A DNA stretch of 64,000 bases from an uncultured Bacteroidota bacterium (GTDB lineage: Bacteria; CLD3; SB21): the NCBI GenBank assembly GCA_964478735.1, contig CAYZJB010000012.1, positions 1,269-65,268 on the forward strand, in the 5' to 3' direction. The position numbers and the translations under genes were made by a program. Shown in pieces: positions 6,613 to 61,691 of this stretch; within the stretch, counting starts at the first letter, position 1; every line of letters starts with the position of its first letter. The notes beneath the pieces were generated by a model that worked only from the letters and a program-made list of their open reading frames with translations, had not been told where the DNA came from and did no database searches.

Positions 6613-6876
6613 ATGGTATGGGCCTTCCACGGGGGCACGTTATTGCCTTGGGCAATAACGGTTTTTGAAATGGCGGGCGGAATTGTGTTGATCGCGGTTT
6701 TGTACGAACATGTTCTTTCCCTGATATTCGCAGCCCATATCGCCACGGGGATTGTCCTCGTACACGCCAGGTTGGGCTGGTTTGTCGTCGGACACGGGCA
6801 AAACGGTGCCGAATACAGTTTTCTTATACGTGTCGCGTGTCTGGCCGTATTTTGCCTACGCGGCGAGAAGCGTTAG
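6613..6876 (+). CDS. Small hydrophobic protein resembling the C-terminal half of a DoxX-family protein. It may be a truncated remnant.
   Basis: 87 aa with two or three predicted TM helices. There is no room upstream for the N-terminal half (110 bp to the previous gene, and a stop codon immediately upstream in frame). Confidence 0.3.
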   Translation: MVWAFHGGTLLPWAITVFEMAGGIVLIAVLYEHVLSLIFAAHIATGIVLVHARLGWFVVGHGQNGAEYSFLIRVACLAVFCLRGEKR

Positions 6877-15033: not shown

Positions 15034-15237
15034 GGAGCATCTCCGATTTGTGGGGGCGGGTTTACCGCAACCTGAATGGTCAGACAAATGTTCGTGCTTT
15101 CTTCAAGGAAATCAAGACGGAATCCGGGCAATAAGTTTGCCGTTGCACTCGCTGCTTTCGTGCCTTACCTTTGACCTATTAATCACGCGCTCCCTTCTTT
15201 TGCCTGACTCCCAGGCACGTGACAGTCGGACGGTCTC

Positions 15238-20179: not shown

Positions 20180-20578
20180 ATGATCATACGTGAAAAAAAA
20201 CATCGGCTGCCGCAAATCGCATACGAAGGATTCGTCATCGTTTCATTTACGATATGTGTGAAAAACAGGTATCCCTTGTTCAACGAACGCGAGACGACCA
20301 GTGTTTTCGCTGACATTCTGTTGACGGAAGCCGGTCGGTTTGAATCTCTCGTCATCATTTACCTCTTCATGCCCGACCATCTCCATTTGGTTCTGCAGGG
20401 AAACTCGGATACGGCTCGGCCTTTGAAAGCGGTCAACGGCTTCAAGCAAAAAACAGGTTATTGGCTATCAAAGCATCGCGTCAATGCGGCCTGGCAGAAA
20501 GGTTTTTACGATCGGATTCTAAGAGACGAAAGCGACCTCGTGACGTGCGTTGATTACATCCTAAATAGTTCTCACTGA
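20180..20578 (+). CDS. REP-associated tyrosine transposase (RayT) / IS200-like HUH (Y1) transposase, probably C-terminally shortened.
   Basis: The HuH motif is in LFMPDHLHLVLQ. The catalytic-Tyr region is WQKGFYDRILRDE...DYILN. The protein ends right after DYILNSSH, where RayT proteins normally continue as YI-x-NP... Confidence 0.75.
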   Translation: MIIREKKHRLPQIAYEGFVIVSFTICVKNRYPLFNERETTSVFADILLTEAGRFESLVIIYLFMPDHLHLVLQGNSDTARPLKAVNGFKQKTGYWLSKHRVNAAWQKGFYDRILRDESDLVTCVDYILNSSH

Positions 20579-21351: not shown

Positions 21352-21475
21352 ATGATTGGTACTACAATTTCCCACTGCAACATTCTCGAAAAACTCGGCG
21401 AACCAACCCCACCCCTGCCCCTCCCCTTGCTAAGGGGAGGGCGAGGGAGGGGTTGCGGGAGGCGTCGCCTATGAT
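21352..21475 (+). other. 40-codon upstream ORF. Its first 17 codons duplicate the kinase N-terminus, read through the GC-rich palindrome, and end in a TGA that overlaps the kinase ATG (ATGA).
   Basis: The uORF starts MIGTTISHCNILEKLGE and the kinase starts MIGQAISHYKILEKLGE. Of the 17 codons, 11 differ only at synonymous positions and 4 are non-synonymous. The uORF continues PTPPLPLPLLRGGRGRGCGRRRL and then stops. Confidence 0.3.
21404..21456. repeat. GC-rich imperfect palindrome (REP-like element): CCCCACCCCTGCCCCTCCCC-TTGCTAA-GGGGAGGGCGAGGGAGGGGTTG.
   Basis: Inverted repeat with stems of about 20 nt. The left arm recurs at 8717-8741. It lies about 0.8 kb from the RayT gene. Confidence 0.5.
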
Positions 21476-39281: not shown

Positions 39282-39647
39282 TTACGGCCGATAAGTGACC
39301 GAAAACCCGGGTGTTTCTGCAATTTCGACTTCGTGAAGAGTCACGACCCCCGGAAGCGATCCACCGAGACGGTCGAAAATGTACCGTGCAATGTTTTCCG
39401 ACGTCGGATTGACGGATTGAAAATACGGATGATCGTTGAATGTCGTGTGGTCGAATTCCGAGAGCAGACCCGTCAGCTTCTCCCGCAGGATCGCATAATC
39501 GGCGGTCATGCCGTTTTCATCGAGCGAAGACGCCGTGAGACGGACACGGACGGTCCAATTATGCCCGTGCGTCCGCGCGCAGACACCGGGATAATTTCTC
39601 AGCGCGTGGGCCGCGGAAAACGATTCCGTCAGCTCGAGAAGGAACAT
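39282..39647 (-). CDS. queD: 6-carboxy-5,6,7,8-tetrahydropterin synthase QueD.
   Basis: The Zn-ligand pattern is C-x-x-x-HGH (CARTHGHNW), with a conserved TFNDHPYF-like block. Confidence 0.85.
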   Translation of the reverse strand: MFLLELTESFSAAHALRNYPGVCARTHGHNWTVRVRLTASSLDENGMTADYAILREKLTGLLSEFDHTTFNDHPYFQSVNPTSENIARYIFDRLGGSLPGVVTLHEVEIAETPGFSVTYRP

Positions 39648-40633
39648 CAGAGACGGTCGGTTTTGATCTTTTTCTTATTTGCGGAAAGGCCGGGAGTGTA
39701 GACGACGACGCGGTTGCGTCCGCCCGCTTTGGCTTCGTACAGCGCCTCGTCAGCCAGACGGATCAGCATGTCGTGGTCCTGGGCGTCATCCGGAAAACTG
39801 GCGACGCCGACGCTGATGCGGACGTTGAAATCCTTGTCGTCGAAGGGAGAATAAAAATAGCGGTCCTGTAAGTCGGCACGGATGCGGCTCATGACCATCC
39901 CGGCGTCACTGTTGCGCGTGCTGGGCATGATGACGGCAAACTCCTCACCGCCGTAGCGGCACACCAGGTCTTGCGCTCGCAGTGATTTTTTGATGTGTTG
40001 CGAGACCGAACCGAGAACGAAGTCGCCCGCGCGGTGCCCGTACGTGTCATTGAATTTTTTGAAATGGTCGATGTCGACCATGACCATGGACAGCGACTGC
40101 GTGTACCGGCGGGCCCGATTGACCTCGACGGGAAGACGATCATCGAACAGACGGCGATTGTAAACGCCGGTCAGCGCGTCCACGTACGTCAGTTTCATGA
40201 AATTATCGGAAATCTGGATCGCACGCTCGATCCGGACCTGCAATTCCTGTAAATCAAACGGTTTGATTAACATGCCGTCGCCGCCAGCGCTGAAAACTTC
40301 GATTTTGGTTTCGAGATTGTTGACCGCGGTAAGGGCGATGATGGGGATGAGCATCGTGCCCGGCAAGCGGCGCAATTGGCGGATCATCTCGATGCCGTTC
40401 ATCTCGGGCATCACGATGTCGGCGAGGATCACGCTGGGTTTTTCCGTCGTGGCCAGTTGAAGTCCTTCGCGGCCGTTGGATGCGACGGAAATGTCGAAAT
40501 TACGCTCCTTCAGAAAGTCCATGATGACGCGGCGAACGGCGATGTCGTCTTCAACAATCAGAATGCGGGGGCGATTGATGACGTCGCCCTGCTGCGCTCC
40601 GGGCATGGGGGTCTGGCTGGTATGCTCGTCCAT
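39647..40633 (-). CDS. Response-regulator receiver plus GGDEF diguanylate cyclase (PleD-like), with an intact GGEEF motif.
   Basis: REC motifs are ILIVEDD, the phospho-acceptor D in ILADIVMPEMNG, and the K in LIKPFD. The GGDEF domain carries RYGGEEF. Confidence 0.9.
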   Translation of the reverse strand: MDEHTSQTPMPGAQQGDVINRPRILIVEDDIAVRRVIMDFLKERNFDISVASNGREGLQLATTEKPSVILADIVMPEMNGIEMIRQLRRLPGTMLIPIIALTAVNNLETKIEVFSAGGDGMLIKPFDLQELQVRIERAIQISDNFMKLTYVDALTGVYNRRLFDDRLPVEVNRARRYTQSLSMVMVDIDHFKKFNDTYGHRAGDFVLGSVSQHIKKSLRAQDLVCRYGGEEFAVIMPSTRNSDAGMVMSRIRADLQDRYFYSPFDDKDFNVRISVGVASFPDDAQDHDMLIRLADEALYEAKAGGRNRVVVYTPGLSANKKKIKTDRL

Positions 40634-44518: not shown

Positions 44519-44836
44519 TTATTTTCGAAAAGTGTAGTCTCGTTCGACGTGGCAGATACGGGTCGTGTACGCCTCATACCAACGGCGTCGACCTTCTTGC
44601 TGGGCAATCACGTGTTCGGCATGGGCCTTCCATTCGCGGACGGCCTCGAGGCTGGACCCGTACGACACGGTAATGCCGAGCCCATCCCGTGCGCTCTCAT
44701 GGCCCAGGTAGCCGGGCTGCTGCTGCGCCAGTTCGATCATGCGTTCGGCCGTGCCGGTGTAACCGTCGTCCACGTCGGTTCGAATGGACGTGAAGATCAC
44801 GGCGTAGTAGGGCGGTTTGGGTGTCGATGCAATCAT
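44519..44836 (-). CDS. ABM-domain (antibiotic biosynthesis monooxygenase-like) protein.
   Basis: MIASTPKPPYYAVIFTS...WSSLEAVREWKAHAEH is ABM-like. The track ORF extends to 44980 with a non-homologous N-terminus. Confidence 0.55.
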   Translation of the reverse strand: MIASTPKPPYYAVIFTSIRTDVDDGYTGTAERMIELAQQQPGYLGHESARDGLGITVSYGSSLEAVREWKAHAEHVIAQQEGRRRWYEAYTTRICHVERDYTFRK

Positions 44837-45962
44837 GGAAAGGTTCTGGAAATTTACGCGATGGCGGGACGGACGCAACAGGTTTTTGCGAGGAAGAAAA
44901 CATTTGCCCGCGGGCCGGGTGAAAATTGTATTAGAATTACACTTCCCGACGAGACGGAATATCATCGGCAACCCATTCACGTTTCCAATTCCGTTCAGTC
45001 TTCCACAGGGAGCAACTCTTTATTCGGGCCCATACCAGTACGGCGGTCTGGACGTTGAGATAGAAGGATGGGGCAACCCCCTGACGCCCGTAACGATGCT
45101 GAAACCGTTCGGCGGGTACGCGCTGAAAAACAACACGGGCAGTGAAAAAACGATCCGCGTGACCGTCAGTCAAACGAGCGTTCTCAAAGTGTCTTCGGCA
45201 CCGTCGTTGTCCACTGCCCCGGTGGTCGTGAACATCAAGGCCATGGCGGATTATCGGGGATTCACGCTCGGCGACCTGTTCAACTACGCTGTCGCAACAA
45301 CGGGAAACGAATTCTATGAGATCCCTGAACCGCCGTACGTGGGCGAATTCGTCTCCGTGTCATTTGAAGATAAACGCCTCGCCGTGGCACCCCTTCCGTT
45401 CAACCCGCAAGGCCAAGTCTGGACATTTACCGTGGAAGCCGTGCCGGGAAGTCGAAACCTGCGGTGGACATACGATCGGCTCCACATTTCGCCCGGCCAT
45501 CGCATTGCGTGGTATGACGTGTCTCACAACCGCCCGATAGACGACCCGGCACCCGGTGAGTGGCTGACCGTTTCGGCCAAACTTGGACAGAAAACACGAA
45601 TTCGGCTCATCGTTGGTACCGAAACGTTTGTGAAGGGAGAACTTGCCCGCACCGCTGCATCCTTGCCTCAAACTTTTGTTCTTCATCCCAATTATCCCAA
45701 TCCTTTTAACCCCCAGACCACGATTTCTTTTGATGTTCCCGTGCGTGGCCAGCTTCAGCTTGTCATTTTCAACGCTATCGGCCAGCATGTTGCTACGCTC
45801 GTCGACGGCGTGGTGGATCCGGGAAACTACCGTATTGTCTGGAATGGAAAAGACCGCTCTGGCGCGTCGGCAGCCAGCGGAGTATATTTTTGCCATCTTC
45901 GGTGCCTCCGGGATGACGGACGTTCATGGACAGCCGCACGGAAGATGTTACTGCTGAAATAA
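44817..45962 (+). CDS. Protein with a T9SS C-terminal sorting domain but no detectable N-terminal signal peptide. The start is uncertain and the gene may be 5'-truncated.
   Basis: The C-terminus NYPNPFNPQTTISFDVP...VIFNAIGQHV...WNGKDRSGASAASGVYF...KMLLLK matches the Por_Secre_tail pattern. No hydrophobic leader appears in any frame between 44840 and 45010. The 5' end overlaps the ABM gene on the opposite strand. Confidence 0.5.
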   Translation: MGVDAIMERFWKFTRWRDGRNRFLRGRKHLPAGRVKIVLELHFPTRRNIIGNPFTFPIPFSLPQGATLYSGPYQYGGLDVEIEGWGNPLTPVTMLKPFGGYALKNNTGSEKTIRVTVSQTSVLKVSSAPSLSTAPVVVNIKAMADYRGFTLGDLFNYAVATTGNEFYEIPEPPYVGEFVSVSFEDKRLAVAPLPFNPQGQVWTFTVEAVPGSRNLRWTYDRLHISPGHRIAWYDVSHNRPIDDPAPGEWLTVSAKLGQKTRIRLIVGTETFVKGELARTAASLPQTFVLHPNYPNPFNPQTTISFDVPVRGQLQLVIFNAIGQHVATLVDGVVDPGNYRIVWNGKDRSGASAASGVYFCHLRCLRDDGRSWTAARKMLLLK

Positions 45963-49869: not shown

Positions 49870-49919
49870 CTTATGATTTTCAGGCTGTCACGCAGAAAAA
49901 GCAAACCGTAACCCGTCCG

Positions 49920-50708
49920 CTAACGTTTCTTTTTTTTCTTGAGAAGTTCCCTGGCGAGTTCGAGATAAGCTTTGGATCCGGCGGAACGGGCATCGTACAG
50001 GATCGCGGGGAGACCGTGAAATACGGCTTCTCCCAATTTGACGTTCTTCGGAATTTTGATATCGAAAACCACTTCTTTGAAAACGAGCCGGGCTTCATCC
50101 TCCGTCCTCTGGCTGATGTTGGTTCCCTGTTCGTACATTGTAAGCAGAATGCCCTCGATTTTCAGCCCCTTGTTCATCCCGTCCTGAATTTTTCGGATGA
50201 CTTTCATGAGCCGGTTCATCGCCTTGAGCGACAGAAAGCCGCATTGGAGTGGAATCAGGATCGAATCGGATGCGGCCAGGGCGCCGACGGTAATGTTGCT
50301 CACGAAGGGCGGACAATCGATGATGATGTAGTCGTAGGAATGGTTCAGGTAGTTCCGGACCAAGCGCAACCGCGCCAGTTTTCCGGCGTACGAAAAAAGT
50401 TCTTCCTCTTCTTCGCTCGACCACACGTTGGCGGGCATGATGGCGAGTTTTTCCTGCGCCGTCGGATAGATCGCTTCCTGGATCAGTTCCTCGCTGATCC
50501 CATCGGCATGGCGGTAGAGATCGAAGACCCCCTGTTTGATCTGTTCTTTCTGTACGCCGAGACCGACCGCGGCGGCACCCGACGGATCGGTGTCGATCAC
50601 GAGTGCTTTTTTGCCCAGATGCGCGAGAGAGGCCGCCAGATTGATCGCAGTCGTGGTCTTCCCCACTCCGCCTTTGGGATTGGCTATGGCGACGACATGG
50701 GCCATCAA
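49920..50708 (-). CDS. ParA/MinD-family deviant Walker-A ATPase, ParC/PpfA-like by context.
   Basis: The deviant Walker A is KGGVGKTT. Its start overlaps the stop of the CheA-like gene by 4 nt. Confidence 0.85.
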   Translation of the reverse strand: MMAHVVAIANPKGGVGKTTTAINLAASLAHLGKKALVIDTDPSGAAAVGLGVQKEQIKQGVFDLYRHADGISEELIQEAIYPTAQEKLAIMPANVWSSEEEEELFSYAGKLARLRLVRNYLNHSYDYIIIDCPPFVSNITVGALAASDSILIPLQCGFLSLKAMNRLMKVIRKIQDGMNKGLKIEGILLTMYEQGTNISQRTEDEARLVFKEVVFDIKIPKNVKLGEAVFHGLPAILYDARSAGSKAYLELARELLKKKKKR

Positions 50709-52915
50709 TTCGCTCTCTGGGTTTCAAGAAATTGCCGGACCGAAGCTTCCGTCTGCTGGGCCAGCTCGCCCAGTTCCATCGGATCGATAAAAAGCCCGAT
50801 GTTTCCGTCCGCCAGCACGGCGCCCCCTGTGAACACCTGCCCCGCCTGAAGCAAATCGTCGAGCGGCTTGACGGCAATGTCGTCCGTTCCGATCACTTCG
50901 TCCACAAGCAGCCCTGTCGGCTTGACGGGCGTATCAACGATGAGGATCGTACGTCCGGTCGCGGATTGTTCGGGATGTACCAGCTGGTGGAGTGGAATCA
51001 CCATGATCAATTTTGCTTCATGCCTTAGCATGCGATGTCCGTGGACGCTCAACAGCTGGTCTTCAGCGGCCGACCGCGTGTCGTTGACGGCAAAAGACGG
51101 GATGACGTAGTGGTCGGCGCCGGATTTCAGGATGACGACGTTGGCGAATGTCTGCCGTTTGGGGATCCGAATGGCCCACCCCGGAGATTCCATTCGAATC
51201 TCGCAGCGCAACCGATCGAGCCCACGAACAATGAAATCATGTATACCCTGCGGGACCTCGTTGCGATATTGCAAAAGATCTTTGACAAACCGGTCAAGCC
51301 GTTCGCGGCGCGTGGACGCGGTTCCGGCGAGTGTTGCCATCAGGTCGACCCATCCCCGGCTGGCATCGGCCGATCTGAAGACAAAATCGTACGCATAGGG
51401 CGATTCATGCAGGGCGAGTTCAATTTCCACCGATTCATCACCGACAATCCGGTCGACAAACTGCCGCACCAGTTCGAGCAACGGATTCTCCAGGTCCTCG
51501 ACGAGTGCAAGTTCCATCCGCGTATCATGATCGTCGATCCAGACCTGAACGGACGCACGGCGCTTTTTCCCGACGCGCACGATCTCGCGTTCGAGCCGGT
51601 TGAGCAGGAGCCGTCCTTCGATGCGTTGAACGGTATCCGCGGCCTTCACCAGCCGTCGGGTCAATTTGGTCAACTGTCCCGTCACGTCATCCAGCGTGTG
51701 AGAAACCTGGCGGTTGTTTCCATCTTCACGCACCTCTCGGCTCAGGGCGGCCAGGGTGGAACGCAAGGCGGTCAGGTCGGCGGCCACGTCAATGATTTCC
51801 GGGATACGTTCGGTTTCCACCAACGTACGGTAAGGCAGGACATACTCCGTATCGAGAAACCGGTACATTTGTTTGTCGGTCTGCCACGCGTTCAGATCCC
51901 GGTACACGACACCGTCGTGACCGCTGAAGACTTCGTCCATGACGCCGGTTTCCGTGGCCAGCACGTGCGCGAGCTGCAGAAAATCGTCCAGCAGATCGGC
52001 CGCTTCATTGGGATCCCGGAATTTCCGCGTCAACCGCTTCAGCGATTCCATTGCCGACGATAGCGCAAGTTTGCGAAATTGTCGGCTTAATTCTTCGACG
52101 TTGCTTCGCCATGCTTCATTCAACCCCTTCGTGCGCCGCGACTGTTCAATGTGGCGAATGAGAAATCGTAGATTGTTCATGGCCACACGCAAGTCCGGAA
52201 ACAGCGGCCGCAAATCGATTGTTTTGCCGTTGCGGGTCAACTCGAGCGGGCGGCCCGCCTGGGTTAATTGACCGAGCGTCTGAAGATCACGTTGGATCTC
52301 CTCGATCTGCGTGTCATCGACGGGACCTGCGATCAACTGACGGTGCCTCTGTAACATGTCGTGCAACCCGGGAAATTCGAAGTCGCGCAATGAAAAGATC
52401 AGGTTGTCCAGCGAATCGAGATAGACCGTGCGTTGCGTGGCGCTCTTCAGGTTATCCGCCAGATTGTGAAAAATATCGAGATGAATCTCCATTACGTGAG
52501 CAATCTTACGTTGCAATTCGACGTCCATCGATCGCATGGAGGCCCCGAGCGATTGGCGTAGCGGTGTAAAACCTCCCTCCGCACGGTCGGATCCTGACGC
52601 CGCTCCCTTGGCAGAATCGAGCCACCGTGTGACGCGCTCTTCGATATCATCGAGAAGATCATCAGACGGTAATTCCCGCGCGCTCAGCAGGACCCGCCGG
52701 ATCGCGTCGTAGCCCTGGTATTCTGCAAATGTGATGAGGTCGTCGAGCAATGACCGGACCGTACCCATCGTCGGCGCCGCACTCTTTCGCCGGGCCTTAT
52801 GGACTTCACGTAACAGGCTCTCCAGAATGTGATGGGCGTCGTCCGCAAAGCGGATCTCTTCGACGCGGACACGTTCCGAGCTCATTCGGCCTTTCTTCGC
52901 ATAGGCAAAATCCAA
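50705..52915 (-). CDS. CheA-derived protein with a conserved C-terminal CheW-like (P5) domain but degenerate ATP-binding and HPt motifs. Predicted to be a non-catalytic array scaffold.
   Basis: The N-box-like region is NPLLELVRQFVDRIVGDE, against the CheA N-box DPLxHLVRNSxDHGIE. SPGWAIRIPKRQTFANVVILKSGADHYVIP aligns to CheA GTGTTIRILLPLTLAILDGMSVRVADEVFILP. TILIVDTPVKPTGLLVDEVIGTDDIAVKPL aligns to IVVILQSGGRRYALLVDQLIGQHQVVVKNL. G1 reads DASRG and G2 reads PQGIHD. Confidence 0.65.
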   Translation of the reverse strand: MDFAYAKKGRMSSERVRVEEIRFADDAHHILESLLREVHKARRKSAAPTMGTVRSLLDDLITFAEYQGYDAIRRVLLSARELPSDDLLDDIEERVTRWLDSAKGAASGSDRAEGGFTPLRQSLGASMRSMDVELQRKIAHVMEIHLDIFHNLADNLKSATQRTVYLDSLDNLIFSLRDFEFPGLHDMLQRHRQLIAGPVDDTQIEEIQRDLQTLGQLTQAGRPLELTRNGKTIDLRPLFPDLRVAMNNLRFLIRHIEQSRRTKGLNEAWRSNVEELSRQFRKLALSSAMESLKRLTRKFRDPNEAADLLDDFLQLAHVLATETGVMDEVFSGHDGVVYRDLNAWQTDKQMYRFLDTEYVLPYRTLVETERIPEIIDVAADLTALRSTLAALSREVREDGNNRQVSHTLDDVTGQLTKLTRRLVKAADTVQRIEGRLLLNRLEREIVRVGKKRRASVQVWIDDHDTRMELALVEDLENPLLELVRQFVDRIVGDESVEIELALHESPYAYDFVFRSADASRGWVDLMATLAGTASTRRERLDRFVKDLLQYRNEVPQGIHDFIVRGLDRLRCEIRMESPGWAIRIPKRQTFANVVILKSGADHYVIPSFAVNDTRSAAEDQLLSVHGHRMLRHEAKLIMVIPLHQLVHPEQSATGRTILIVDTPVKPTGLLVDEVIGTDDIAVKPLDDLLQAGQVFTGGAVLADGNIGLFIDPMELGELAQQTEASVRQFLETQRAN

Positions 52916-52993
52916 GCTTTCGACACGCCGGCTCCCGTCGTTTCCGGGTCAAAATCGTTGTCGCCATGGAGGGGCTTCACAAACGGCATCACG

Positions 52994-54868
52994 TTAATAC
53001 GACTTCCCGACCTTGAATTTTTTAAGCACGACGGAAAAATCCTGTACGGCCTGACGTATCTTGTGTACGTTTTCCTGCTGCATGACCCCGATGTCGCCCG
53101 CGCTTTTGGAGGCGAGCAGCGTGCCGTCGAGGACTTCCGTCGTGCGCGATAATTTGATCGCGTGCGTTTTCGCCAGGTGCGCCGACGCCTTGAGTTCGTT
53201 TTTTAACCCTTCGATCGCCTGATCCTGTTGATCGAACCACGCGATAAATTTGCGCAAACTTTCCGTCAATGTTTCGCCCTCGGTGGAAACCGCCTGAATT
53301 TTTGCTTGAACGGACTGGATGCGGTCCATCACGTCGCCCGTCTTCGAGTCGACGTCACGGTAACTTTCTTCGATGGCGGCCGTGACTTTTTCAAGCTCCC
53401 GCAGGACGCGGTCCGCAATGTCGGAGCGGTCTTCATACGCGTGAACGTACTCGCTCAGGTCCTGCGAAGCCGCTTCGATGTTGCGCGACACCGACACGAG
53501 GTTTTCGACGAGTTGTTCGCCGGCCTCGACGCTCGGCAGGCTCCGGTACGTTTCCAGCGAGACGTTCAGCGACAGGACGCGAACGCGATCGGCCGCATCC
53601 TTCGCGTTTTCACGGATTCCGAGCCCGTGATCGATGCGCTGTTTGAGATTCGCGTGAAATTGGTCCACCAGATCGCGAAGATGCGCGCCCGAAGACGTAC
53701 GCTCGACAAATTGCCGCTCCGAATCACGCAGCGCCTGGGCGGCGCTGCTCAGCCGGTGAAGCTCTTTGCGGGCATCGTCGACGGCGGTGACAAAGGCCCG
53801 GGCATGCTGCTGAACCGTCTCGAGCATCGGACCGACTTCCTGCAGCGCGCCTTTGACTTTTTCCATCCCCTCGACTTTCCGAAGGGATTCGCCGAGATCT
53901 TTGACGTTGAGATGCAGGTCGAGGAACATGTCCTCCGCCTGCGATACTTCCTGCACGTGGCGCTGCGTGGCCAGCGTGAATGCCTGAGCCGCTTCATCCA
54001 GCGTCTGGCACGCGTGTGTGATTGTTCCCACCCGTTCGTTCAGCGTACGAATTTCCTTATCATACTGGGCCAGCAGATCGTTGATTCCGTACGCAATGTC
54101 GTTGGCTTCGTCGTAGGCGTTCAGCTCCAGTCGCGGGGTCAGATCGAGCCCGATCTGCTGAATGAAGGTACGGGCCGATTTCAACGGACGAACCAGGGAT
54201 CGCGCGATCAGCGCCGAAAAAATCGCACCGATGGCCACGGCAACGATCGCCGTCCACCACAGGGAGGATTGAAGTCCCGCCGTCGAAGTCGACGCCGATT
54301 GCAAGACGGCCTTGTGCTGCTGAACCGCAATCGCCTGCAGCGACTCCAACCGAATGCTCACGTCCGCTTTGAGCGATCGAACCTCGCGCAGCAATTCATC
54401 GCGTTCGTTGAGCAGCACCTGTTGCGAAATCGGTCCGACGGTTTCCAGCCGTACCCGATGCTTGAACATGGCCTGCCCCGCCATCGCGTCGTACCGTTCA
54501 ACGGCGCGCTGCGCCTTGACCACGGCTTCCTGGATCTGAATGTCCGCTTCGTGCTGAGGCCGCTGCCCGATCCGTAATAAGGTTTCCGTCAATTTTTTGA
54601 GCAGGTCGACGCGTCGCTCGCCGATGAGGGCCACCTGATCCTTGTCCGTCTCGGCCATGTATGCATCAAGGTTATTGGAAATGGAGAACATGAGGGCGCT
54701 GCAGTCGTATGCATCTTTCAGAAGCGCCGCTTCCGGCGAGATCCGCTGGAGCGATTCGCCCGTCCAACGCGCGTTCAACCACGTCACGAGCGTGCCGACC
54801 AGAATGATCACGGCCATGACCGTAAACGTGAGAATAACCTTGAGCTGAATGCTTACCTGGTGAAGCAT
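52994..54868 (-). CDS. Divergent methyl-accepting-chemotaxis-like transducer: TM, periplasmic domain, TM, HAMP, then a long coiled-coil signalling domain.
   Basis: Two TM segments are present, the second LWWTAIVAVAIGAIFSALIA. The HAMP-like stretch is RSLVRPLKSARTFIQQIG. RVRVLSLNVSLETYRS...VEAGEQ resembles the MCP core [20 protein letters not shown] only loosely. Confidence 0.65.
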   Translation of the reverse strand: MLHQVSIQLKVILTFTVMAVIILVGTLVTWLNARWTGESLQRISPEAALLKDAYDCSALMFSISNNLDAYMAETDKDQVALIGERRVDLLKKLTETLLRIGQRPQHEADIQIQEAVVKAQRAVERYDAMAGQAMFKHRVRLETVGPISQQVLLNERDELLREVRSLKADVSIRLESLQAIAVQQHKAVLQSASTSTAGLQSSLWWTAIVAVAIGAIFSALIARSLVRPLKSARTFIQQIGLDLTPRLELNAYDEANDIAYGINDLLAQYDKEIRTLNERVGTITHACQTLDEAAQAFTLATQRHVQEVSQAEDMFLDLHLNVKDLGESLRKVEGMEKVKGALQEVGPMLETVQQHARAFVTAVDDARKELHRLSSAAQALRDSERQFVERTSSGAHLRDLVDQFHANLKQRIDHGLGIRENAKDAADRVRVLSLNVSLETYRSLPSVEAGEQLVENLVSVSRNIEAASQDLSEYVHAYEDRSDIADRVLRELEKVTAAIEESYRDVDSKTGDVMDRIQSVQAKIQAVSTEGETLTESLRKFIAWFDQQDQAIEGLKNELKASAHLAKTHAIKLSRTTEVLDGTLLASKSAGDIGVMQQENVHKIRQAVQDFSVVLKKFKVGKSY

Positions 54869-54874
54869 GAGAAC

Positions 54875-55297
54875 CTATTGCGGTCCAAGAACGCCGATTC
54901 CCTCGACCAGCGTTGACGGTAAGAGCCGGTAGTAGCGGGTGTCATCGATTACAAATCCATCTCGGCTGATGGGATTCAGTACGACGTCCTCCGACGCCGA
55001 AACTTTCTTTGGCCAGGGTCCGACGTGCCGGACGTCATCGACAAGAACACCGAATGTCCGTTCGCGATGACGTAAAATCAGAATCCGTTTCGTACCGTCG
55101 TTCACCGCTTGGTTTTCAAAAAAACGGGCAAGTCGGATCACGGGAATAAGGCGTCCACGGTAATTCATCAGTCCTTCCATCGTCTCCGGTGTCGTCGATA
55201 GCCGCTTGAGTGGACTTTCGCGTACGATCTCCGTCACATCATTGACGTCCATTACAAAATGAAGTCCGCCGGCAATTAATGTCACTGCGTGGGTCAA
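54875..55297 (-). CDS. cheW: Chemotaxis coupling protein CheW.
   Basis: 140 aa. The CheW pattern is L-x-F-x-L / DVNDVTEIV / NYRGRLIPVIRL. It lies 7 nt from the MCP-like gene. Confidence 0.85.
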   Translation of the reverse strand: MTHAVTLIAGGLHFVMDVNDVTEIVRESPLKRLSTTPETMEGLMNYRGRLIPVIRLARFFENQAVNDGTKRILILRHRERTFGVLVDDVRHVGPWPKKVSASEDVVLNPISRDGFVIDDTRYYRLLPSTLVEGIGVLGPQ

Positions 55298-58559: not shown

Positions 58560-59552
58560 TTACCGGGCCTTGCTCGTGTCTTTTGCCGTGCCGCCCGTGT
58601 CCGTTTTAGCGGACGTGTGAATTACAGGAATGATCACGTTGTACTCAAGCGCCGCAACGTCGGGTTTGGGGCGCCCGGAACGTTGAACCGTGTAATTGAT
58701 GGTGTACTTGGTCATCTCGAAATTCAGCTGCTGCTGCTGAAGCATTTTCAAGAATTTGAGAAAATCGGAGGCAGGGCTCTCGATTTTCAGAGTACTTGAA
58801 TACTTGTCAAAAATCACGCCCTTGGTTTGTCCGGGACGTTCTTCCAGTGAGGCTTTGCTGAGATTACGCACGGCCAGTTCCCGAATGATACCGTTGGTCT
58901 TTTTTACGTCGGGAAACGCGACGGATACCGATGAGGAGTCGGTTTCGTCGATCTGCGGCGAAATGAGCACGCCCAGCATCTGACGGCGATACGCATAGCC
59001 TGGAACGGCCGAGGAGGATCGGATGTCCTTGGCGTCGCGGCTTTTGACCAGATCCAACTGGGTGACCTGATTGCTGTACGCCTTCAGGTCGTTTTCCGTT
59101 TTCCCGAACATGTCGAGCGTAAAATCGTTGCCGTCCAGATCGACACTGGACAACCAGACGTTGGGATTGTTGGTATTGGACGTGTCCAGAAACAATAGGA
59201 ACCGATGATCACGCTCGTGCATCAGAAGTGTGTTGCGCACGTAGTCCATCCGGCGCTTTTCGCGACGCATCTGGTCAATTTGTTCCTGCGTGAGCGGAAC
59301 GACTTGTGGGGAAAGAATATTCAGCGGTCCGGTGTATTGCTCAATGAACGCGACCAGCGGATACCGGTTGATATACCCGAGCACGCCTCCGGCGATGAGC
59401 AGCGTAAAAAGAACCATAAAAATGACGACCCGGCGCGAGCTCTTTTTTGCCTCCAGCCGGATGACGTCAGTAGCCGACTCTACGACAAACACCGGCCGTT
59501 CACGCGGACCGTGCATGGACAGATCGTTTTTCAAAAGGTTGATTTTGATCAT
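58560..59552 (-). CDS. PilN-like (possibly a PilN/PilO fusion) type IV pilus / competence assembly membrane protein.
   Basis: The ATG at about 59552 gives MIKINLLKNDL, matching the PilN INLLP motif. It has a single TM (VVIFMVLFTLLIAGGVLGYI) and a periplasmic domain. Its start overlaps the pilM-like stop by 1 nt. Confidence 0.5.
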   Translation of the reverse strand: MIKINLLKNDLSMHGPRERPVFVVESATDVIRLEAKKSSRRVVIFMVLFTLLIAGGVLGYINRYPLVAFIEQYTGPLNILSPQVVPLTQEQIDQMRREKRRMDYVRNTLLMHERDHRFLLFLDTSNTNNPNVWLSSVDLDGNDFTLDMFGKTENDLKAYSNQVTQLDLVKSRDAKDIRSSSAVPGYAYRRQMLGVLISPQIDETDSSSVSVAFPDVKKTNGIIRELAVRNLSKASLEERPGQTKGVIFDKYSSTLKIESPASDFLKFLKMLQQQQLNFEMTKYTINYTVQRSGRPKPDVAALEYNVIIPVIHTSAKTDTGGTAKDTSKAR

Positions 59553-60568
59553 CAGTTGACCAGCATTTTTATGGCGGCACCGATACACTCCGCATACGGC
59601 GCATAGTCGACCGGTTCGATCTTGATTTTAGATTTGTGCGGATTGTCGTCGCCTTCATCCGCTTCGGATGTTTCCTGGGGTTTGTATTTCGGATCCAGGA
59701 CGATCCTTCCGGTGGGCTGGATCGCCGACGCACGGTACCGCGCTTCCATCTGCGGCGCGACGGCCGTGCAAAACGGCCCCGTCACGATCGTACGGCCCAA
59801 AACGCCGGACTTGCCGCTTTCGGCGTTGTGGAGATGAATCATATTATCCAGAAACGGACCGATAAACGAAGCCAGCCGGTCCGGCGTACTTTTCGCCGGC
59901 GTAGGAAATTGAAAAATGTATTCCGGATCGTAATCGTTGCACAAAAGCACCGTCGTCACTCCGGGTTTCGCTTCGACCAGCGCCGTCATCCCGTCGGGAC
60001 ATCGGTCATGATTGACCTCATACGTCGCATGGGCGCAAAGGATGTCGACATCCAGGCAACTGAAGTTCAGGCGAAATTTTTCCAGTACGGCCTGCAGCGT
60101 CTCGGCGTACCGGCGCCGAATACCGACCACAAGCAGCGACGAGAGAAAGCCGTCCCCAGCCGCTTTCATATCGCAGGTATTGACAACGTAATCGTCGAGC
60201 TCTCCGCTGACGTACTGGCCGAATTCCCACTGCACGTGACGGCGAAAATCCTCATCGGCCGAGTCGCTGTCCACGCTGATCTTCTGGAGACAGGCGAGAT
60301 TTGAATTGAGGCTGATGTTCATCGACTGAGCCTGAATGCCGTTGTCTTCGACGCACCCGTTGAGGTACGGGTAGATATCGCGGATGTTTTTTTCGACGGC
60401 CTCGATGCCCGTGCCGAACTTCAGATTCGTTTTCACGGCGCCGATATTCCGTATCCGGAATTGCTGAGGCGCACGTTCCACTTCGGCAAACAAGATGTCC
60501 TGGCCGCTGAAGCTCAACCCCAGCGCGGTTGCACTGACTTCGGTAACCGTATCGTCGTATTCAGACAT
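59552..60568 (-). CDS. PilM-like actin-fold pilus assembly protein.
   Basis: The N-terminus LGLSFSGQDILFAEVE is like the PilM/FtsA phosphate-1 loop. Gene order pilM then pilN is conserved. Confidence 0.5.
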   Translation of the reverse strand: MSEYDDTVTEVSATALGLSFSGQDILFAEVERAPQQFRIRNIGAVKTNLKFGTGIEAVEKNIRDIYPYLNGCVEDNGIQAQSMNISLNSNLACLQKISVDSDSADEDFRRHVQWEFGQYVSGELDDYVVNTCDMKAAGDGFLSSLLVVGIRRRYAETLQAVLEKFRLNFSCLDVDILCAHATYEVNHDRCPDGMTALVEAKPGVTTVLLCNDYDPEYIFQFPTPAKSTPDRLASFIGPFLDNMIHLHNAESGKSGVLGRTIVTGPFCTAVAPQMEARYRASAIQPTGRIVLDPKYKPQETSEADEGDDNPHKSKIKIEPVDYAPYAECIGAAIKMLVN

Positions 60569-60576
60569 TGGCGTGA

Positions 60577-61143
60577 TTATAAAATCATATCCGCGCGGTC
60601 GTCCCAGGAAATTTCCCCTTCAATGACGCCGCCGACGCGCTTCAGTTCCTTTTCATCGTTGGTCGGCTTGATGCTGAAGGTCTTTCGTCCCGTTTTGACC
60701 ATCGTTTCGACAATGAATTTTTCTCCCGACAGGGGGTTGATCGTCGCCGAATCGAGATATTTCATGCGGAATTCGTGAAGAGACATATTTTCGAGCGCGT
60801 CACGATGTTCGTCAAATCTCAGATACGCCTGATACATCGGACGGAAGAGCGAATCCGGCACGATCGTCGTATCGGCACGTTTGGCGAAAGCGACAAGTTT
60901 CTGCAGATCCGTCGTATAGGAAGTATCCTCATACAGATACAGATACTGCAACTGGAACAACGTGCGCATTTTGACCCGGCTCAGTTTGGTCAGCAGGCGC
61001 TCCGTTTCTCTTTCCTGCATCGGAACGACGATCGACCAAATCAGGATGCCGACCATCAGGACAATGCCGATTTCAAGAAAAATGTTTCCTTTGGCCGTCG
61101 GTCTCAGTTCTTTTGATTTTTGTTGTGATTGTTCTTCGGACAT
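60577..61143 (-). CDS. N-terminally membrane-anchored hypothetical protein.
   Basis: 188 aa with a single TM (IFLEIGIVLMVGILIWSIVV). No prepilin G|F cleavage motif. It lies between comEA and pilM. Confidence 0.4.
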   Translation of the reverse strand: MSEEQSQQKSKELRPTAKGNIFLEIGIVLMVGILIWSIVVPMQERETERLLTKLSRVKMRTLFQLQYLYLYEDTSYTTDLQKLVAFAKRADTTIVPDSLFRPMYQAYLRFDEHRDALENMSLHEFRMKYLDSATINPLSGEKFIVETMVKTGRKTFSIKPTNDEKELKRVGGVIEGEISWDDRADMIL

Positions 61144-61166
61144 GATGCCTCCGCGCGCGCTTCGAT

Positions 61167-61691
61167 TTAATGAATAGTAATATAGGGTCGTATTTTTTCC
61201 AACATTTTCTTGCCGATTCCCTTGACGGCAGTCAATTGATCGACGTTTTCAAAAGGCCCGTTTTGCCGTCGGTAGTCGATGATACGTTCGGCCAGTTTCG
61301 GCCCGACCTTGGGCAGACTGGCCAGTTCCTCTGTTCCCGCCGTGTTGATATTGACCTGAAGGACCGGTGCATCTTCGAGGCGCTCAAGCCAGACCACGGC
61401 AGAATCCGTTTGTCCCTGCTGGACCAGTGATTCGATGTGCTGCGCCCGGTGATGCCATGTGATTTCAGAAACCACCGATGTGTCGGCACGGCCGGAATCC
61501 GCGATCGCAATGACCGTCCTGAATTGCGCCTCTTTTTCTGCAGTCACGTCGGGCGCCGGCGGTATTATCCACGACCGAACGGTCGGAATCCCCGCCCCGA
61601 TCGCCGTGATGACGGCAATGAACTGGATCGCGACGATTTCACTTCGAGTAAAACCGAACGTCTCAAAGAACAACCGAATTTTTTCCCTCAT
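61167..61691 (-). CDS. comEA: ComEA-family helix-hairpin-helix DNA-uptake/binding protein.
   Basis: The C-terminal tandem HhH reads VNINTAGTEELASLPKVGPKLAERIIDYRRQNGPFENVDQLTAVKGIGKKMLEKI. There is an N-terminal TM. Confidence 0.8.
   Translation of the reverse strand: MREKIRLFFETFGFTRSEIVAIQFIAVITAIGAGIPTVRSWIIPPAPDVTAEKEAQFRTVIAIADSGRADTSVVSEITWHHRAQHIESLVQQGQTDSAVVWLERLEDAPVLQVNINTAGTEELASLPKVGPKLAERIIDYRRQNGPFENVDQLTAVKGIGKKMLEKIRPYITIH

What the first reader, a model, noticed from the sequence alone, without database searches (positions are those of the whole stretch)
49920..55297. Compact chemosensory-like module: CheW, divergent MCP, CheA-derived pseudokinase scaffold, translationally coupled ParA-like ATPase
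Four minus-strand genes are packed tightly. The cheW/mcp gap is 7 bp, the mcp to cheA-like gap is 79 bp, and the cheA-like stop overlaps the parA-like start by 4 nt.

The 736-aa protein is clearly CheA-derived. Its C-terminal 150 aa align block-for-block with the CheA P5/CheW fold:
- SPGWAIRIPKRQTFANVVILKSGADHYVIP against GTGTTIRILLPLTLAILDGMSVRVADEVFILP
- TILIVDTPVKPTGLLVDEVIG against IVVILQSGGRRYALLVDQLIG
- FTGGAVLADGNIGLFID against ATILGDGSVALIVD

The ATPase motifs are degenerate:
- The N-box LVRNSxDHG reads LVRQFVDRIVG.
- G1 DDGAG reads ADASRG.
- G2 GRGVGMD reads PQGIHD.
- No H-x-x-K-G HPt motif is visible in the N-terminal 150 aa.

A dead CheA scaffold fused in an operon to a deviant-Walker-A ParA/MinD ATPase (KGGVGKTT) recalls ParC/ParP (Vibrio) and PpfA/TlpT (Rhodobacter) array-positioning systems. 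Those systems use CheW-only or MCP partners, not a CheA pseudokinase. No CheY, CheR, CheB or active CheA is present in 64 kb.
Basis: partly seen in the sequence, partly recalled or inferred. Interest (0 to 1): 0.75.

Follow-up and report, generated by a model that had tools for sequence, protein, structure and literature searches.

The report
Kinase-dead chemoreceptor module coupled to ParA
A rare four-gene operon in uncultured Bacteroidota-like bacteria encodes a chemoreceptor, a CheW adaptor and a CheA kinase that has lost its active site and phospho-histidine, joined to a divergent ParA-type ATPase, so this chemotaxis-like complex cannot signal by phosphorylation and probably works through, or is positioned by, the ParA ATPase.

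Summary
Four tightly packed minus-strand genes encode:
- CheW;
- a divergent transmembrane MCP;
- a CheA-derived protein with P3, a degenerate P4 and P5, which I call CheA*;
- a ParA/Soj-type ATPase whose start overlaps the CheA* stop (TGATG).

CheA* aligns in one stretch to T. maritima CheA P3-P4-P5 (E 3e-24). The N, G1, F and G2 boxes are lost in all three subclades. The window protein has no HPt domain. The most distant relative keeps a P1 domain with His replaced by Tyr.

All four genes are under purifying selection (dN/dS 0.02-0.19), and their order is conserved in ten related loci. The CheA* family is very rare: three 50%-identity clusters among 1.84 billion representatives.

The ParA is 72-95% identical within the module family, against 23-30% (distant members L007/L010) for CheA*. 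Its nearest outside relatives in the one metagenome collection scanned are parAB-operon ParAs at no more than 44% identity. It has replaced residues invariant in those ParAs (Q62S, N64A, E176K, L150V).

My best reading is a self-contained, phosphorylation-independent receptor lattice with CheA* as a ParP-like adaptor to the ParA. It is a new variant of the ParC/ParP and PpfA/TlpT kind. What the module outputs is unresolved.

The parts
54875..55297 (-). cheW, 140 aa. Only the N-terminal subdomain (residues 5-92) matches the CheW profile. The C-terminal third is divergent.
   Evidence: Pfam PF01584 at 6.2e-20. It is conserved at the same position in L001-L010. dN/dS is 0.18-0.19.
52994..54868 (-). 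Divergent transmembrane MCP, 624 aa. Layout: TM1 at about aa 5-30, a periplasmic sensor at about 33-200, TM2 at about 201-225, a HAMP-like region at about 226-275, then a long hairpin signalling domain.
   Evidence: It has no Pfam MCPsignal hit itself. It is 24% identical over its full length (E 3e-53) to L010:1050-2930, which hits MCPsignal at 61.7 bits, HAMP at 28.7 bits and 4HB_MCP weakly. The family profile hits solved MCPs (2ch7 at 3.6e-8, plus Tsr, PcaY and Aer). Hydropathy shows two peaks and no methylation-consensus site. dN/dS is about 0.10.
53459..53584 (-). MCP hairpin tip, aa 429-470: VRVLSLNVSLETYRSLPSVEAGEQLVENLVSVSRNI. It is a degenerate version of the usually near-invariant ..[26 protein letters not shown].. 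tip that contacts CheA-P5 and CheW.
   Evidence: Alignment to T. maritima MCP 2ch7 and to the more canonical L010 tip VHVLALNASLEGAKAGEFGKGF.
52997..53026 (-). Conserved basic C-terminal peptide of the MCP, ..LKKFKVGKSY-COOH. It is a candidate tether or partner-binding motif.
   Evidence: This is the best-conserved segment between the window and L010 MCPs: 64% identity, against 12-26% in the signalling arms. A function for it is inference only.
50705..52885 (-). CheA-derived pseudokinase scaffold, CheA*. It is 726 aa from the ATG, or 736 aa if the upstream TTG at 52915 is used.
   Evidence: phmmer and profile hits to CheA structures. Only three 50%-identity clusters share the full-length architecture among 1.84e9 representatives. 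dN/dS is 0.10-0.12. JGI annotates it as 'hypothetical protein'.
51851..52885 (-). CheA* N-terminal family-specific region, aa 1-345. It is modelled as three helical bundles. Invariant motifs are (T/M)(F/M)AEY(Q/R)G(Y/F)D and (V/M)Y(L/V)DS(L/V)(D/E)N; a further motif, LD(T/S)xY, lies at aa 344-348, on the boundary with the P3-like part. It replaces P1 and P2 and is the candidate ParA-contact region.
51626..51850 (-). CheA* P3-like dimerisation helices, aa about 346-420.
   Evidence: This is part of the single aligned stretch to 1b3q chain positions 4-65.
51149..51625 (-). CheA* degenerate P4 (Bergerat-fold) domain, aa about 421-579. Relative to T. maritima CheA the N box has H405->E, N409->Q, H413->R and G414->I. 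G1 DDGRG reads DASRG. The F box is lost. G2 GRGVGMD is reduced to GI-HD. The lid is shortened by about 11 residues.
   Evidence: Column-by-column comparison with 110 CheA representatives, in which these positions are at least 90% conserved. The model hits CheA P4 structures with TM about 0.5. There is no HATPase_c Pfam hit. It is still under purifying selection, with dN/dS about 0.12.
50771..51148 (-). CheA* P5 (CheW-like) domain, aa about 580-705.
   Evidence: Pfam CheW at 4.8e-12. NCBIfam CheA models match only here. It aligns to CheA P5 in 1b3q, 2ch4 and 6s1k.
49920..50705 (-). Divergent Soj/ParA-type ATPase, 261 aa. Its ATG shares one base with the CheA* stop (TGATG). It keeps the deviant Walker A KGGVGKT, D38, D40 and the Walker B D130. 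Motif 2 reads DTDPSGAA. It has an acidic insert WSSEEEEELF and a polybasic C-tail LLKKKKKR.
   Evidence: Pfam AAA_31 at 2e-47 and CbiA at 1e-23. The best solved relative is M. xanthus chromosomal ParA, 8RAY, at 2e-61 and 44% identity. It is 72-95% identical within the module family. Site-by-site comparison with 76 parAB-type ParAs is. dN/dS is 0.02-0.04. No parB lies downstream; the next gene is a convergent HtrA-like protease.
49900..49921 (-). Terminator-like hairpin right after the parA stop. It is weak evidence for the operon end.
   Evidence: Consensus scan. The number of such sites in the region is not above the shuffled expectation.

Best explanation
The operon encodes a self-contained chemoreceptor-type complex that has given up phosphotransfer.

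**Shown.**
- A transmembrane MCP with a conserved periplasmic sensor, a CheW, and a CheA-derived scaffold (CheA*: P3 dimerisation, dead P4, P5) are all present.
- A translationally coupled Soj/ParA-type ATPase follows CheA*.
- CheA* lacks every ATP-binding box and has no HPt histidine.
- All four genes are kept together and are under purifying selection.
- The ParA keeps its ATP-binding core and a basic residue at the DNA-binding position.
- The ParA has replaced residues that are invariant in ParB-partnered ParAs.

**Inferred.**
- MCP, CheW and CheA* together form a receptor lattice, or core-unit-like complex.
- CheA* plays the role ParP plays in Vibrio. Its P5 domain sits in the receptor lattice, and its family-specific 345-aa N-terminal region (and possibly the basic C-terminal peptide of the MCP) contacts the ATP-bound ParA dimer.
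- The ParA ATP cycle on the nucleoid or at a pole then positions and partitions the complex, following the logic of ParC/ParP and PpfA/TlpT.
- Because the kinase is dead and the MCP tip has diverged from the canonical tip, any sensory output must go through protein contacts rather than a CheY. The ParA is the only enzyme in the module.
For: **Composition and order.**
- The gene set and order are shown.
- The order cheW-mcp-cheA*-parA is conserved in L001-L010. In L007 every gene junction overlaps.

**CheA ancestry and loss of kinase function.**
- Ancestry. Loss of kinase motifs in all three subclades.
- P1 is absent from the window protein. It is present in P0023, with His replaced by Tyr.

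**MCP.**
- MCP homology.
- Between distant members the sensor region is better conserved than the signalling arms. There is no methylation consensus.

**Selection and rates.**
- dN/dS is 0.02-0.19 for all four genes and 0.07-0.19 (window vs L002/L006) for every CheA* domain, including the dead P4.
- Between the window and L007, CheW, MCP and CheA* are 30-36% identical. Neighbouring housekeeping genes are 48-82% identical, and the ParA is 81.5%. This fits an insulated, co-evolving complex attached to a constrained ATPase.

**ParA.**
- It keeps K11, K16, D38, D40, D130 and K223 (at the R238 DNA-binding position).
- It carries S, A, K, V and F where 73-76 of 76 parAB-type ParAs have Q62, N64, E176, L150 and Y81. 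The roles of those residues are taken from PMC12462528.
- Of the 80 nearest ParAs, 68 are followed by an ORF with the ParB box II motif (GERRxRA), taken as parB; this one is not.

**Precedent.** ParA-like ATPases encoded with chemotaxis genes position arrays, and ParP uses a P5-like domain plus an N-terminal ParC-binding domain (PMC5706961, PMC11407121).
Against: - No interaction was tested or modelled. The ParA-contact role of the CheA* N-terminus is pure inference.
- Positioning a lattice that has no known output is an incomplete explanation.
- The ParA is not demonstrably related to ParC or PpfA; I had neither sequence.
- The N64A change in Motif 2 may cripple ATP hydrolysis. That would fit a switch better than a gradient-driven positioning motor.
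- The ParA is more conserved than most neighbouring housekeeping genes. That is unexpected for a mere cargo-positioning accessory of a fast-evolving complex.
- The rest of the genome was not available, so other che genes, an active CheA or a separate parAB operon cannot be excluded or confirmed.
Confidence: 0.45

Rival explanations
1. Receptor-gated ParA switch. The MCP senses a periplasmic ligand. The conformational signal passes through CheW and CheA*. It changes sequestration, dimerisation or ATP hydrolysis of the ParA-type ATPase. The ParA is then the pathway output, controlling a nucleoid- or membrane-associated process such as division-site choice, replication or segregation, or placement of a motility or secretion machine. 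It would not be a positioning device for the array.
For: - The module is complete by itself under this reading: sensor, coupling proteins and one enzyme. It is conserved as a unit in three divergent subclades.
- The sensor and HAMP regions of the MCP are better conserved than the signalling arms, so input matters.
- There is no kinase, HPt His, CheY, CheR, CheB or methylation site.
- The ParA is the most constrained gene of the set: dN/dS 0.02-0.04, and 81.5% identity where CheA* is 30%.
- Its Motif 2 has lost N64 and Q62, which are invariant in 76 of 76 relatives. That suggests an altered, partner-dependent hydrolysis step.
- Other ParA/MinD ATPases act as regulatory switches, for example Soj, FlhG and MipZ (PMC11407121).
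Against: - I found no precedent for a chemoreceptor pathway with a ParA output.
- No target of the ParA is visible in the neighbourhood.
- No interaction data exist.
- The known role of ParA-like genes next to che genes is positioning.
Confidence: 0.25
2. ParP-like accessory of canonical arrays. The genome encodes an ordinary che system elsewhere. CheA* inserts through P5, or heterodimerises through P3, into arrays driven by an active CheA and tethers them to the ParA. Alternatively, CheA* is phosphorylated in trans, as R. sphaeroides CheA3 is by CheA4.
For: - P3 and P5 are retained.
- ParP integrates into arrays by a P5-like domain.
- Split or complementary CheAs are known in R. sphaeroides (PMC6829392).
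- One His (H191 in 736-aa numbering) is invariant in the N-terminal region.
Against: - The cognate MCP tip and CheW are themselves divergent and evolve as fast as CheA*. That argues for an insulated complex rather than mixing with canonical receptors.
- There is no canonical HPt motif, and the deepest member has Tyr at the His position.
- No che genes lie within the 64 kb window or within the 10 kb flanks of related loci.
- The presence of another CheA is untested.
Confidence: 0.15
3. The ParA is the cell's chromosome-segregation or Soj-type ATPase. The kinase-dead receptor lattice serves as its membrane or polar landmark or regulator, as HubP, PopZ/TipN or bactofilin-PadC do elsewhere.
For: - Its closest solved and metagenomic relatives are chromosomal ParAs.
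- It is very highly conserved.
- Basic residues are kept at the DNA-binding positions, K220 and K223.
Against: - No parB is adjacent, whereas 68 of the 80 nearest relatives have one.
- The ParB-pocket and Motif 2 residues invariant in parAB-type ParAs are replaced.
- There is an identity gap: at least 72% inside the module family, and at most 44% to everything else found.
Confidence: 0.08
4. CheA* is still an active or unorthodox kinase, or the three che-like genes are decaying relics with no function.
For: - The Bergerat fold appears to be retained.
- The three che-derived genes evolve fast.
Against: - The N, G1, F and G2 positions are neither canonical nor conserved among the family's own members, and the lid is deleted. 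A conserved alternative active site is therefore unlikely.
- ORF lengths, gene order and dN/dS of about 0.1-0.2 are kept across lineages down to 23% identity. That excludes decay.
Confidence: 0.04

Closest known systems
ParC/ParP chemotaxis-array positioning system (Vibrio, Pseudomonas)
   Same: - A ParA-family ATPase is encoded next to chemosensory genes.
- The partner protein has a C-terminal CheW/P5-like domain that can sit in the receptor core unit, and an N-terminal region free to bind the ATPase.
- ParP's AIF domain is reported to be closer to CheA-P5 than to CheW (PMC5706961).
   Different: - The partner here is a near-full-length CheA derivative that keeps P3 and a dead P4. It has a 345-aa helical N-terminus and no proline-rich linker.
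- No active CheA, CheY, CheZ or CheB lies in the operon or the window.
- The MCP and CheW are dedicated and divergent.
- The ATPase's nearest relatives found are parAB-type ParAs. Orthology to ParC was not tested.
- The lineage is FCB or Bacteroidota-like, not gammaproteobacterial.
PpfA/TlpT system of Rhodobacter sphaeroides cheOp3
   Same: - A ParA-like ATPase in a che cluster partitions a chemoreceptor cluster, using the nucleoid as a matrix.
- A basic residue is present here at the position needed for non-specific DNA binding (K223 for R238).
   Different: - The PpfA cargo is a cytoplasmic receptor cluster with active CheA3/CheA4 signalling to CheY6.
- Here the receptor has two transmembrane segments and the only CheA is catalytically dead.
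- The activator in R. sphaeroides is the receptor's N-terminus. Here the partner is unknown.
Canonical CheA histidine kinase (P1-P5)
   Same: - P3, the P4 fold and P5 are homologous and collinear (E 3e-24 to 1b3q).
- A distant family member keeps a P1-like domain.
- It is encoded with a CheW and an MCP.
   Different: - All ATP-binding boxes are lost and the lid is shortened.
- There is no phospho-accepting His and no P2.
- P1 and P2 are replaced by family-specific helical bundles.
Chromosomal ParA/Soj of ParABS systems (for example M. xanthus ParA, PDB 8RAY)
   Same: - It is 44% identical.
- It keeps the deviant Walker A with the signature Lys, D58 and D60 of Motif 2, Walker B, and basic DNA-binding positions.
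   Different: - It has no adjacent parB.
- It carries Q62S, N64A, Y81F, L150V, L152N, E176K and R235K/R238K, where parAB-type ParAs are (near-)invariant at most of these positions (L152 and R238 are more variable: L in 49/76, R in 64/76).
- It has an acidic insert and a polybasic C-tail.
- It is translationally coupled to a CheA derivative.

Membership tests
CheA histidine kinase | P1 HPt domain with a phospho-accepting His (H-x-x-K-G) | tested here: not met
CheA histidine kinase | P3 dimerisation domain | tested here: met
   The family profile aligns through 1b3q chain positions 4-65, which is P3, within one continuous stretch. Pfam H-kinase_dim itself is not hit.
CheA histidine kinase | P4 HATPase_c domain with N, G1, F and G2 boxes | tested here: not met
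   The fold-level match is kept. All four boxes are replaced or deleted, and they are not conserved among the three subclades. No HATPase_c Pfam hit.
CheA histidine kinase | P5 CheW-like regulatory domain | tested here: met
   Pfam CheW at 4.8e-12, residues 593-715. It aligns to P5 of solved CheAs.
Methyl-accepting chemotaxis protein | MCP signalling domain with a conserved hairpin tip | tested here: inconclusive
   The window protein fails Pfam MCPsignal. Homology is established through L010 (MCPsignal 61.7 bits; 24% identity, E 3e-53) and through the family profile against solved MCPs (3.6e-8). The tip consensus is only partly kept.
Methyl-accepting chemotaxis protein | Methylation sites (A/S/T/G-x-x-E/Q-E/Q-x-x-A/S/T) used with CheR and CheB | tested here: not met
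   The regex finds no consensus site in the window protein. No cheR or cheB was found in the window.
ParC/ParP array-positioning system | ParA-family ATPase encoded within a chemosensory gene cluster | tested here: met
   parA-like follows cheA* directly with a 1-nt overlap, in every related locus.
ParC/ParP array-positioning system | ParP architecture: N-terminal ParC-binding domain, proline-rich linker, C-terminal AIF (CheW/P5-like) domain | tested here: not met
   The C-terminal P5-like domain is present. However, P3 and a dead P4 intervene, and there is no proline-rich linker. Sequence similarity to the ParP N-terminus was not tested, because I had no ParP sequence.
ParC/ParP array-positioning system | The ATPase is a ParC orthologue, and the cluster contains an active CheA, CheY and the rest | tested here: inconclusive
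   I had no ParC sequence to compare. The nearest relatives found are parAB-type ParAs at no more than 44% identity. No active che genes are in the window. The rest of the genome is unseen.
ParC/ParP array-positioning system | Polar anchoring through HubP/FimV and ParC-dependent array localisation | not testable with these tools
   This needs cell biology.
PpfA/TlpT system | Cargo is a cytoplasmic (non-membrane) chemoreceptor cluster | tested here: not met
   The MCP has two strong hydrophobic segments, at about aa 5-30 and 201-225, flanking a 170-aa domain.
PpfA/TlpT system | ATPase binds non-specific DNA through C-terminal basic residues | tested here: inconclusive
   K220 and K223 occupy the R235 and R238 positions, so the charge is kept. 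Binding itself was not tested.
Chromosomal ParABS ParA | Adjacent parB, plus the ParB-binding pocket and Motif 2 residues (Q62, N64, Y81, L150, E176) | tested here: not met
   There is no parB; a convergent protease gene lies downstream. Of the 80 nearest ParAs, 68 have parB. The module ParA has S, A, F, V and K where 73-76 of 76 relatives have Q, N, Y, L and E.
ParA/MinD P-loop ATPase superfamily | Deviant Walker A with signature Lys, Walker A' aspartates, Walker B | tested here: met
   KGGVGKT with K11 and K16, plus D38, D40 and D130, all present and invariant.

The most novel reading that the evidence does not exclude
The module is a chemoreceptor-type signalling pathway that has abandoned phosphotransfer altogether. 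A ligand-sensing MCP-CheW-CheA* lattice gates the ATP cycle, or the sequestration, of a specialised ParA-family ATPase. That ATPase has lost its ParB pocket and the Motif 2 Asn and Gln. It is the pathway's output, linking an extracytoplasmic signal directly to a nucleoid- or membrane-based spatial process.
Probability: 0.25. Interest if true: 0.85.

Novelty: new variant of a known kind. Interest (0 to 1): 0.6.

Why it matters
Chemosensory arrays are understood as kinase-control machines. ParA-like ATPases next to che genes are understood as devices that place those machines.

Here the kinase is dead in every member of the family, yet the receptor, adaptor, scaffold and ATPase are kept together under purifying selection. 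That gives a natural test case for two questions:
- What can the CheA scaffold (P3, P4 fold, P5) do without catalysis?
- How does a ParA-family ATPase recognise a non-ParB partner?

The ParA carries clean substitutions at positions that are invariant in ParB-partnered ParAs. This makes partner specificity and the role of Motif 2 directly testable.

If the receptor gates the ParA, it would be a new output class for chemoreceptor pathways.

The limits are real. The family is very rare, it is known only from metagenomic contigs of uncultured bacteria, and nothing about interactions or phenotype is known.

Tried and rejected
- **Word-indexed homologue searches.** Single-protein queries found only close relatives. 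A third search with the six-sequence alignment added no new family members.
- **Genome collection scan.** The GTDB-species scan with the CheA* profile found one locus only (L009, 'uncultured Bacteroidota bacterium').
- **Metagenome scan with the CheA* profile.** It found none.
- **Full-length AF2 model.** It was poor (pLDDT 52), and the P5 domain was not folded. I used it only for the P4 match.
- **AFDB50 fold library.** It was not available.
- **Promoter and terminator scans.** Counts were not above the shuffled expectation, and the sigma-70 consensus is probably the wrong model for this lineage.
- **PADLOC.** Only generic P-loop and coiled-coil noise, so a defence-system reading is rejected.
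- **Literature.** Searches for a natural kinase-dead CheA, or a CheA-like protein paired with a ParA, returned nothing relevant. Sample accessions are not mentioned in any paper held.
- **Exact-sequence look-up of the window's CheA\* contig.** It failed, so the source assembly and its taxonomy stay unknown.
- **Decay or pseudogene reading.** Rejected on dN/dS.

Full report
**What is there**

- cheW (54875-55297) hits Pfam CheW at 6e-20.
- The last gene (49920-50705) is a ParA/MinD-family ATPase: AAA_31 at 2e-47 and CbiA at 1e-23.
- The 736-aa ORF has a C-terminal CheW-like domain (4.8e-12). It has no Hpt, H-kinase_dim or HATPase_c hit. NCBIfam CheA models match only that C-terminal part.
- The 624-aa ORF has no significant domain hit of its own.

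Exact look-up finds the CheA-like product from the ATG at 52885 (726 aa, NCBI source) and the ParA product from the ATG at 50705 (261 aa; NCBI, JGI and Logan sources) in public collections. With those starts the CheA-like stop and the parA start share one base, TGATG. This does not change the picture.

**The 726-aa protein is CheA-derived and catalytically dead**

Evidence for CheA ancestry:
- phmmer against solved structures finds only CheA. There are two stretches: P3 plus the start of P4, and P5.
- A profile of five family members aligns in one continuous stretch to T. maritima CheA-289 (P3-P4-P5; 1b3q and 3ja6) at E 3e-24.
- The template-free model, although poor overall (pLDDT 52), finds CheA P4 structures as its top fold matches.

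Evidence for loss of kinase function comes from aligning the family to 110 CheA representatives. Positions that are at least 90% conserved in CheA are replaced or deleted:
- The N box reads LVRQFVDRIVG, with H405->E, N409->Q, H413->R and G414->I (T. maritima numbering).
- G1 DDGRG reads DASRG in the window clade, GHPA in P0003, GSRP in P0022 and SAQE in P0023.
- The F box GFST is gone.
- G2 GRGVGMD is cut to GI-HD.
- About 11 lid residues are missing.

These positions are not conserved among the family's own three subclades, so a hidden alternative active site is unlikely.

**The N-terminus**

The window protein has no HPt domain by sequence. The most distant family member, P0023 (934 aa, locus L010), carries an extra N-terminal domain. 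That domain matches a profile of 138 CheA P1 domains (hhalign 95.7%, hmmsearch 4e-10), and the phospho-accepting His is replaced by Tyr. The family therefore descends from a complete CheA. The kinase and the His were lost early, and P1 was lost later in the window lineage.

The remaining 345 N-terminal residues are family-specific.
- They model as three helical bundles (pLDDT 72.9).
- Foldseek finds nothing significant.

I treat this as a generic bundle topology, not as an HPt domain.

**The 624-aa protein is a divergent MCP**
- It is 24% identical over its full length (E 3e-53) to the L010 protein at the same operon position. That protein passes Pfam MCPsignal (61.7 bits) and HAMP.
- The six-member family profile hits solved MCPs: TM1143 at 3.6e-8, plus Tsr, PcaY and Aer.
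- It has two hydrophobic segments flanking a domain of about 170 aa, and no methylation-consensus site.
- Its hairpin tip (LSLNVSLETYRSLPSVEAGEQLV) is a degenerate form of the usually near-invariant tip.
- Between distant members, the sensor region is better conserved than the signalling arms. So is a basic C-terminal peptide..FKVGKSY.

**Conservation, rarity and selection**

The order cheW-mcp-cheA*-parA recurs in all ten related loci. They share the same housekeeping synteny: dnaJ, a comEA-like gene, a pilM-like gene, rsmD, coaD, two lepB genes and yjbQ. In L007 all the junctions overlap.

An exhaustive HMMER search of 1.84 billion representatives finds only three 50%-identity clusters with the full-length architecture. 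Every other hit is an ordinary CheA matching only P3-P5. One GTDB species representative carries the module, labelled 'uncultured Bacteroidota bacterium'. The window also carries type IX secretion genes.

| Gene | dN/dS |
|---|---|
| CheA* | 0.10-0.12 |
| MCP | about 0.10 |
| CheW | 0.18-0.19 |
| ParA | 0.02-0.04 |

Every CheA* domain, including the dead P4, is constrained. These are working proteins, not relics.

Rates differ sharply. Between the window and L007, neighbouring housekeeping proteins are 48-82% identical. CheW, MCP and CheA* are 34, 36 and 30% identical. The ParA is 81.5% identical, and it is still 72% identical to the L010 ParA where CheA* is 23%.

**The ParA**

Its best solved relative is the M. 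xanthus chromosomal ParA, 8RAY, at 2e-61 and 44% identity.

A metagenome scan returned 80 relatives, all at 44% identity or less.
- 68 of them have an ORF with the ParB box II motif (GERRxRA), taken as parB, immediately downstream.
- None has a CheA- or CheW-like neighbour.

The module ParA is therefore an isolated offshoot of the Soj/ParA clade. No parB follows it; the next gene is a convergent HtrA-like protease.

Site by site:
- It keeps the signature Lys and the P-loop Lys, D38 and D40, the Walker B Asp, and lysines at the R235 and R238 DNA-binding positions.
- It has S, A, K, V and F where 73-76 of 76 relatives have Q62, N64, E176, L150 and Y81.

According to PMC12462528:
- N64 helps coordinate Mg2+ and the catalytic water;
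- Q62 links the catalytic motifs across the dimer;
- L150, G151, L152 and L192 form the ParB pocket;
- Y81 and nearby acidic residues receive the ParB arginine.

The partner surface and part of the hydrolysis machinery have therefore been remodelled. That fits a non-ParB partner and perhaps an altered hydrolysis step.

**How it most likely works**

What is shown:
- the composition of the module;
- the CheA ancestry and the loss of kinase and HPt function;
- MCP homology;
- conserved coupling to a remodelled ParA;
- purifying selection on all four genes.

What is inferred:
- MCP, CheW and CheA* form an insulated receptor lattice.
- CheA* acts like ParP, with P5 in the lattice and the N-terminal region binding the ATPase. 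ParP's CheW-like domain is itself closer to CheA-P5 than to CheW (PMC5706961).
- The ParA ATP cycle positions or partitions the complex, as in ParC/ParP and PpfA/TlpT (PMC11407121).

The weak point is that a kinase-less lattice has no known output.

The main rival, and the most novel reading, is that the ParA is the output and the receptor complex gates it. In favour of this:
- the sensor domain is conserved;
- no adaptation or phosphotransfer parts are present;
- the module is self-contained;
- the ParA is under extreme constraint;
- its Motif 2 is altered.

Against it: I found no precedent and no visible target.

Other rivals:
- An accessory role in canonical arrays encoded elsewhere is weakened by the divergent MCP tip and CheW. 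It cannot be excluded without the genome.
- A chromosomal-ParA reading is weakened by the missing parB and the replaced ParB-pocket residues.

**Verdict**

This is a new variant of the ParA-coupled chemoreceptor-array kind, built on a naturally kinase-dead CheA. It is very rare and is so far known only from metagenomic contigs. Literature searches found no description of such a system. That is absence of evidence within the held library only.

Noticed in passing
window 52997-53026 (MCP C-terminus): The MCP ends in an invariant basic peptide, ..LKKFKVGKSY-COOH. It is kept as ..FKVGKSRY in the L010 homologue, at only 24% overall identity. It is the best-conserved segment of the cytoplasmic part, and it recalls C-terminal tether peptides such as NWETF or the basic ParA-activating peptides. 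Its partner is unknown.
   Followed up: partly
window 49920-50705 (ParA-like): The protein has a polybasic C-terminal tail (LLKKKKKR; IIKRNSKNK in L007) and an acidic insert (WSSEEEEELF). The helix next to the partner pocket is strongly basic (K161, R165, K168, R171, K172), where M. xanthus ParA is acidic or neutral. This suggests an acidic partner motif. The invariant AEYxGxD motif of the CheA* N-terminus is one candidate.
   Followed up: partly
window 54875-55297 (cheW): Only residues 5-92 of the 140-aa CheW match the Pfam CheW profile. In L010 the CheW matches over its full length. The C-terminal subdomain has diverged in the window lineage, in parallel with the MCP tip and CheA*.
   Followed up: partly
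window 58560-61691: The conserved upstream synteny includes a PilM-like protein (59552-60568, PF11104 at 27.8 bits), two conserved hypothetical proteins (58560-59588 and 60577-61143) and a ComEA-like HHH protein (61167-61691). Together they could be a pilus or competence assembly set, lying between dnaJ and rsmD.
   Followed up: no
window 20180-20578: An IS200-like Y1 transposase ORF of 132 aa (PF01797 at 3.9e-9).
   Followed up: no
window 32621-36904 and 44817-45962: Type IX secretion markers are present: a PorV homologue (35837-36904), a 1052-aa FG-GAP protein with a Por_Secre_tail sorting domain (32621-35779), and a FlgD_ig-domain protein (44817-45962). These fit an FCB-group organism.
   Followed up: no
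window 39647-40633, 1438-4653, 6873-8429, 14807-16525, 21453-24107: The region is dense in signalling genes: a REC-GGDEF response regulator, a 1071-aa Reg_prop/Y_Y_Y hybrid-type sensor kinase, two SpoIIE-type phosphatases (one with a GAF domain), and an 884-aa Ser/Thr kinase with TPR repeats. None is a che gene.
   Followed up: no
L010 (logan:SRR18853680 contig, 6482 bp): This is the least-derived version of the module. The MCP still passes Pfam MCPsignal and HAMP. The CheW matches over its full length. The CheA* keeps a P1-like domain with His replaced by Tyr, followed by an acidic linker. It is useful as an evolutionary intermediate.
   Followed up: yes
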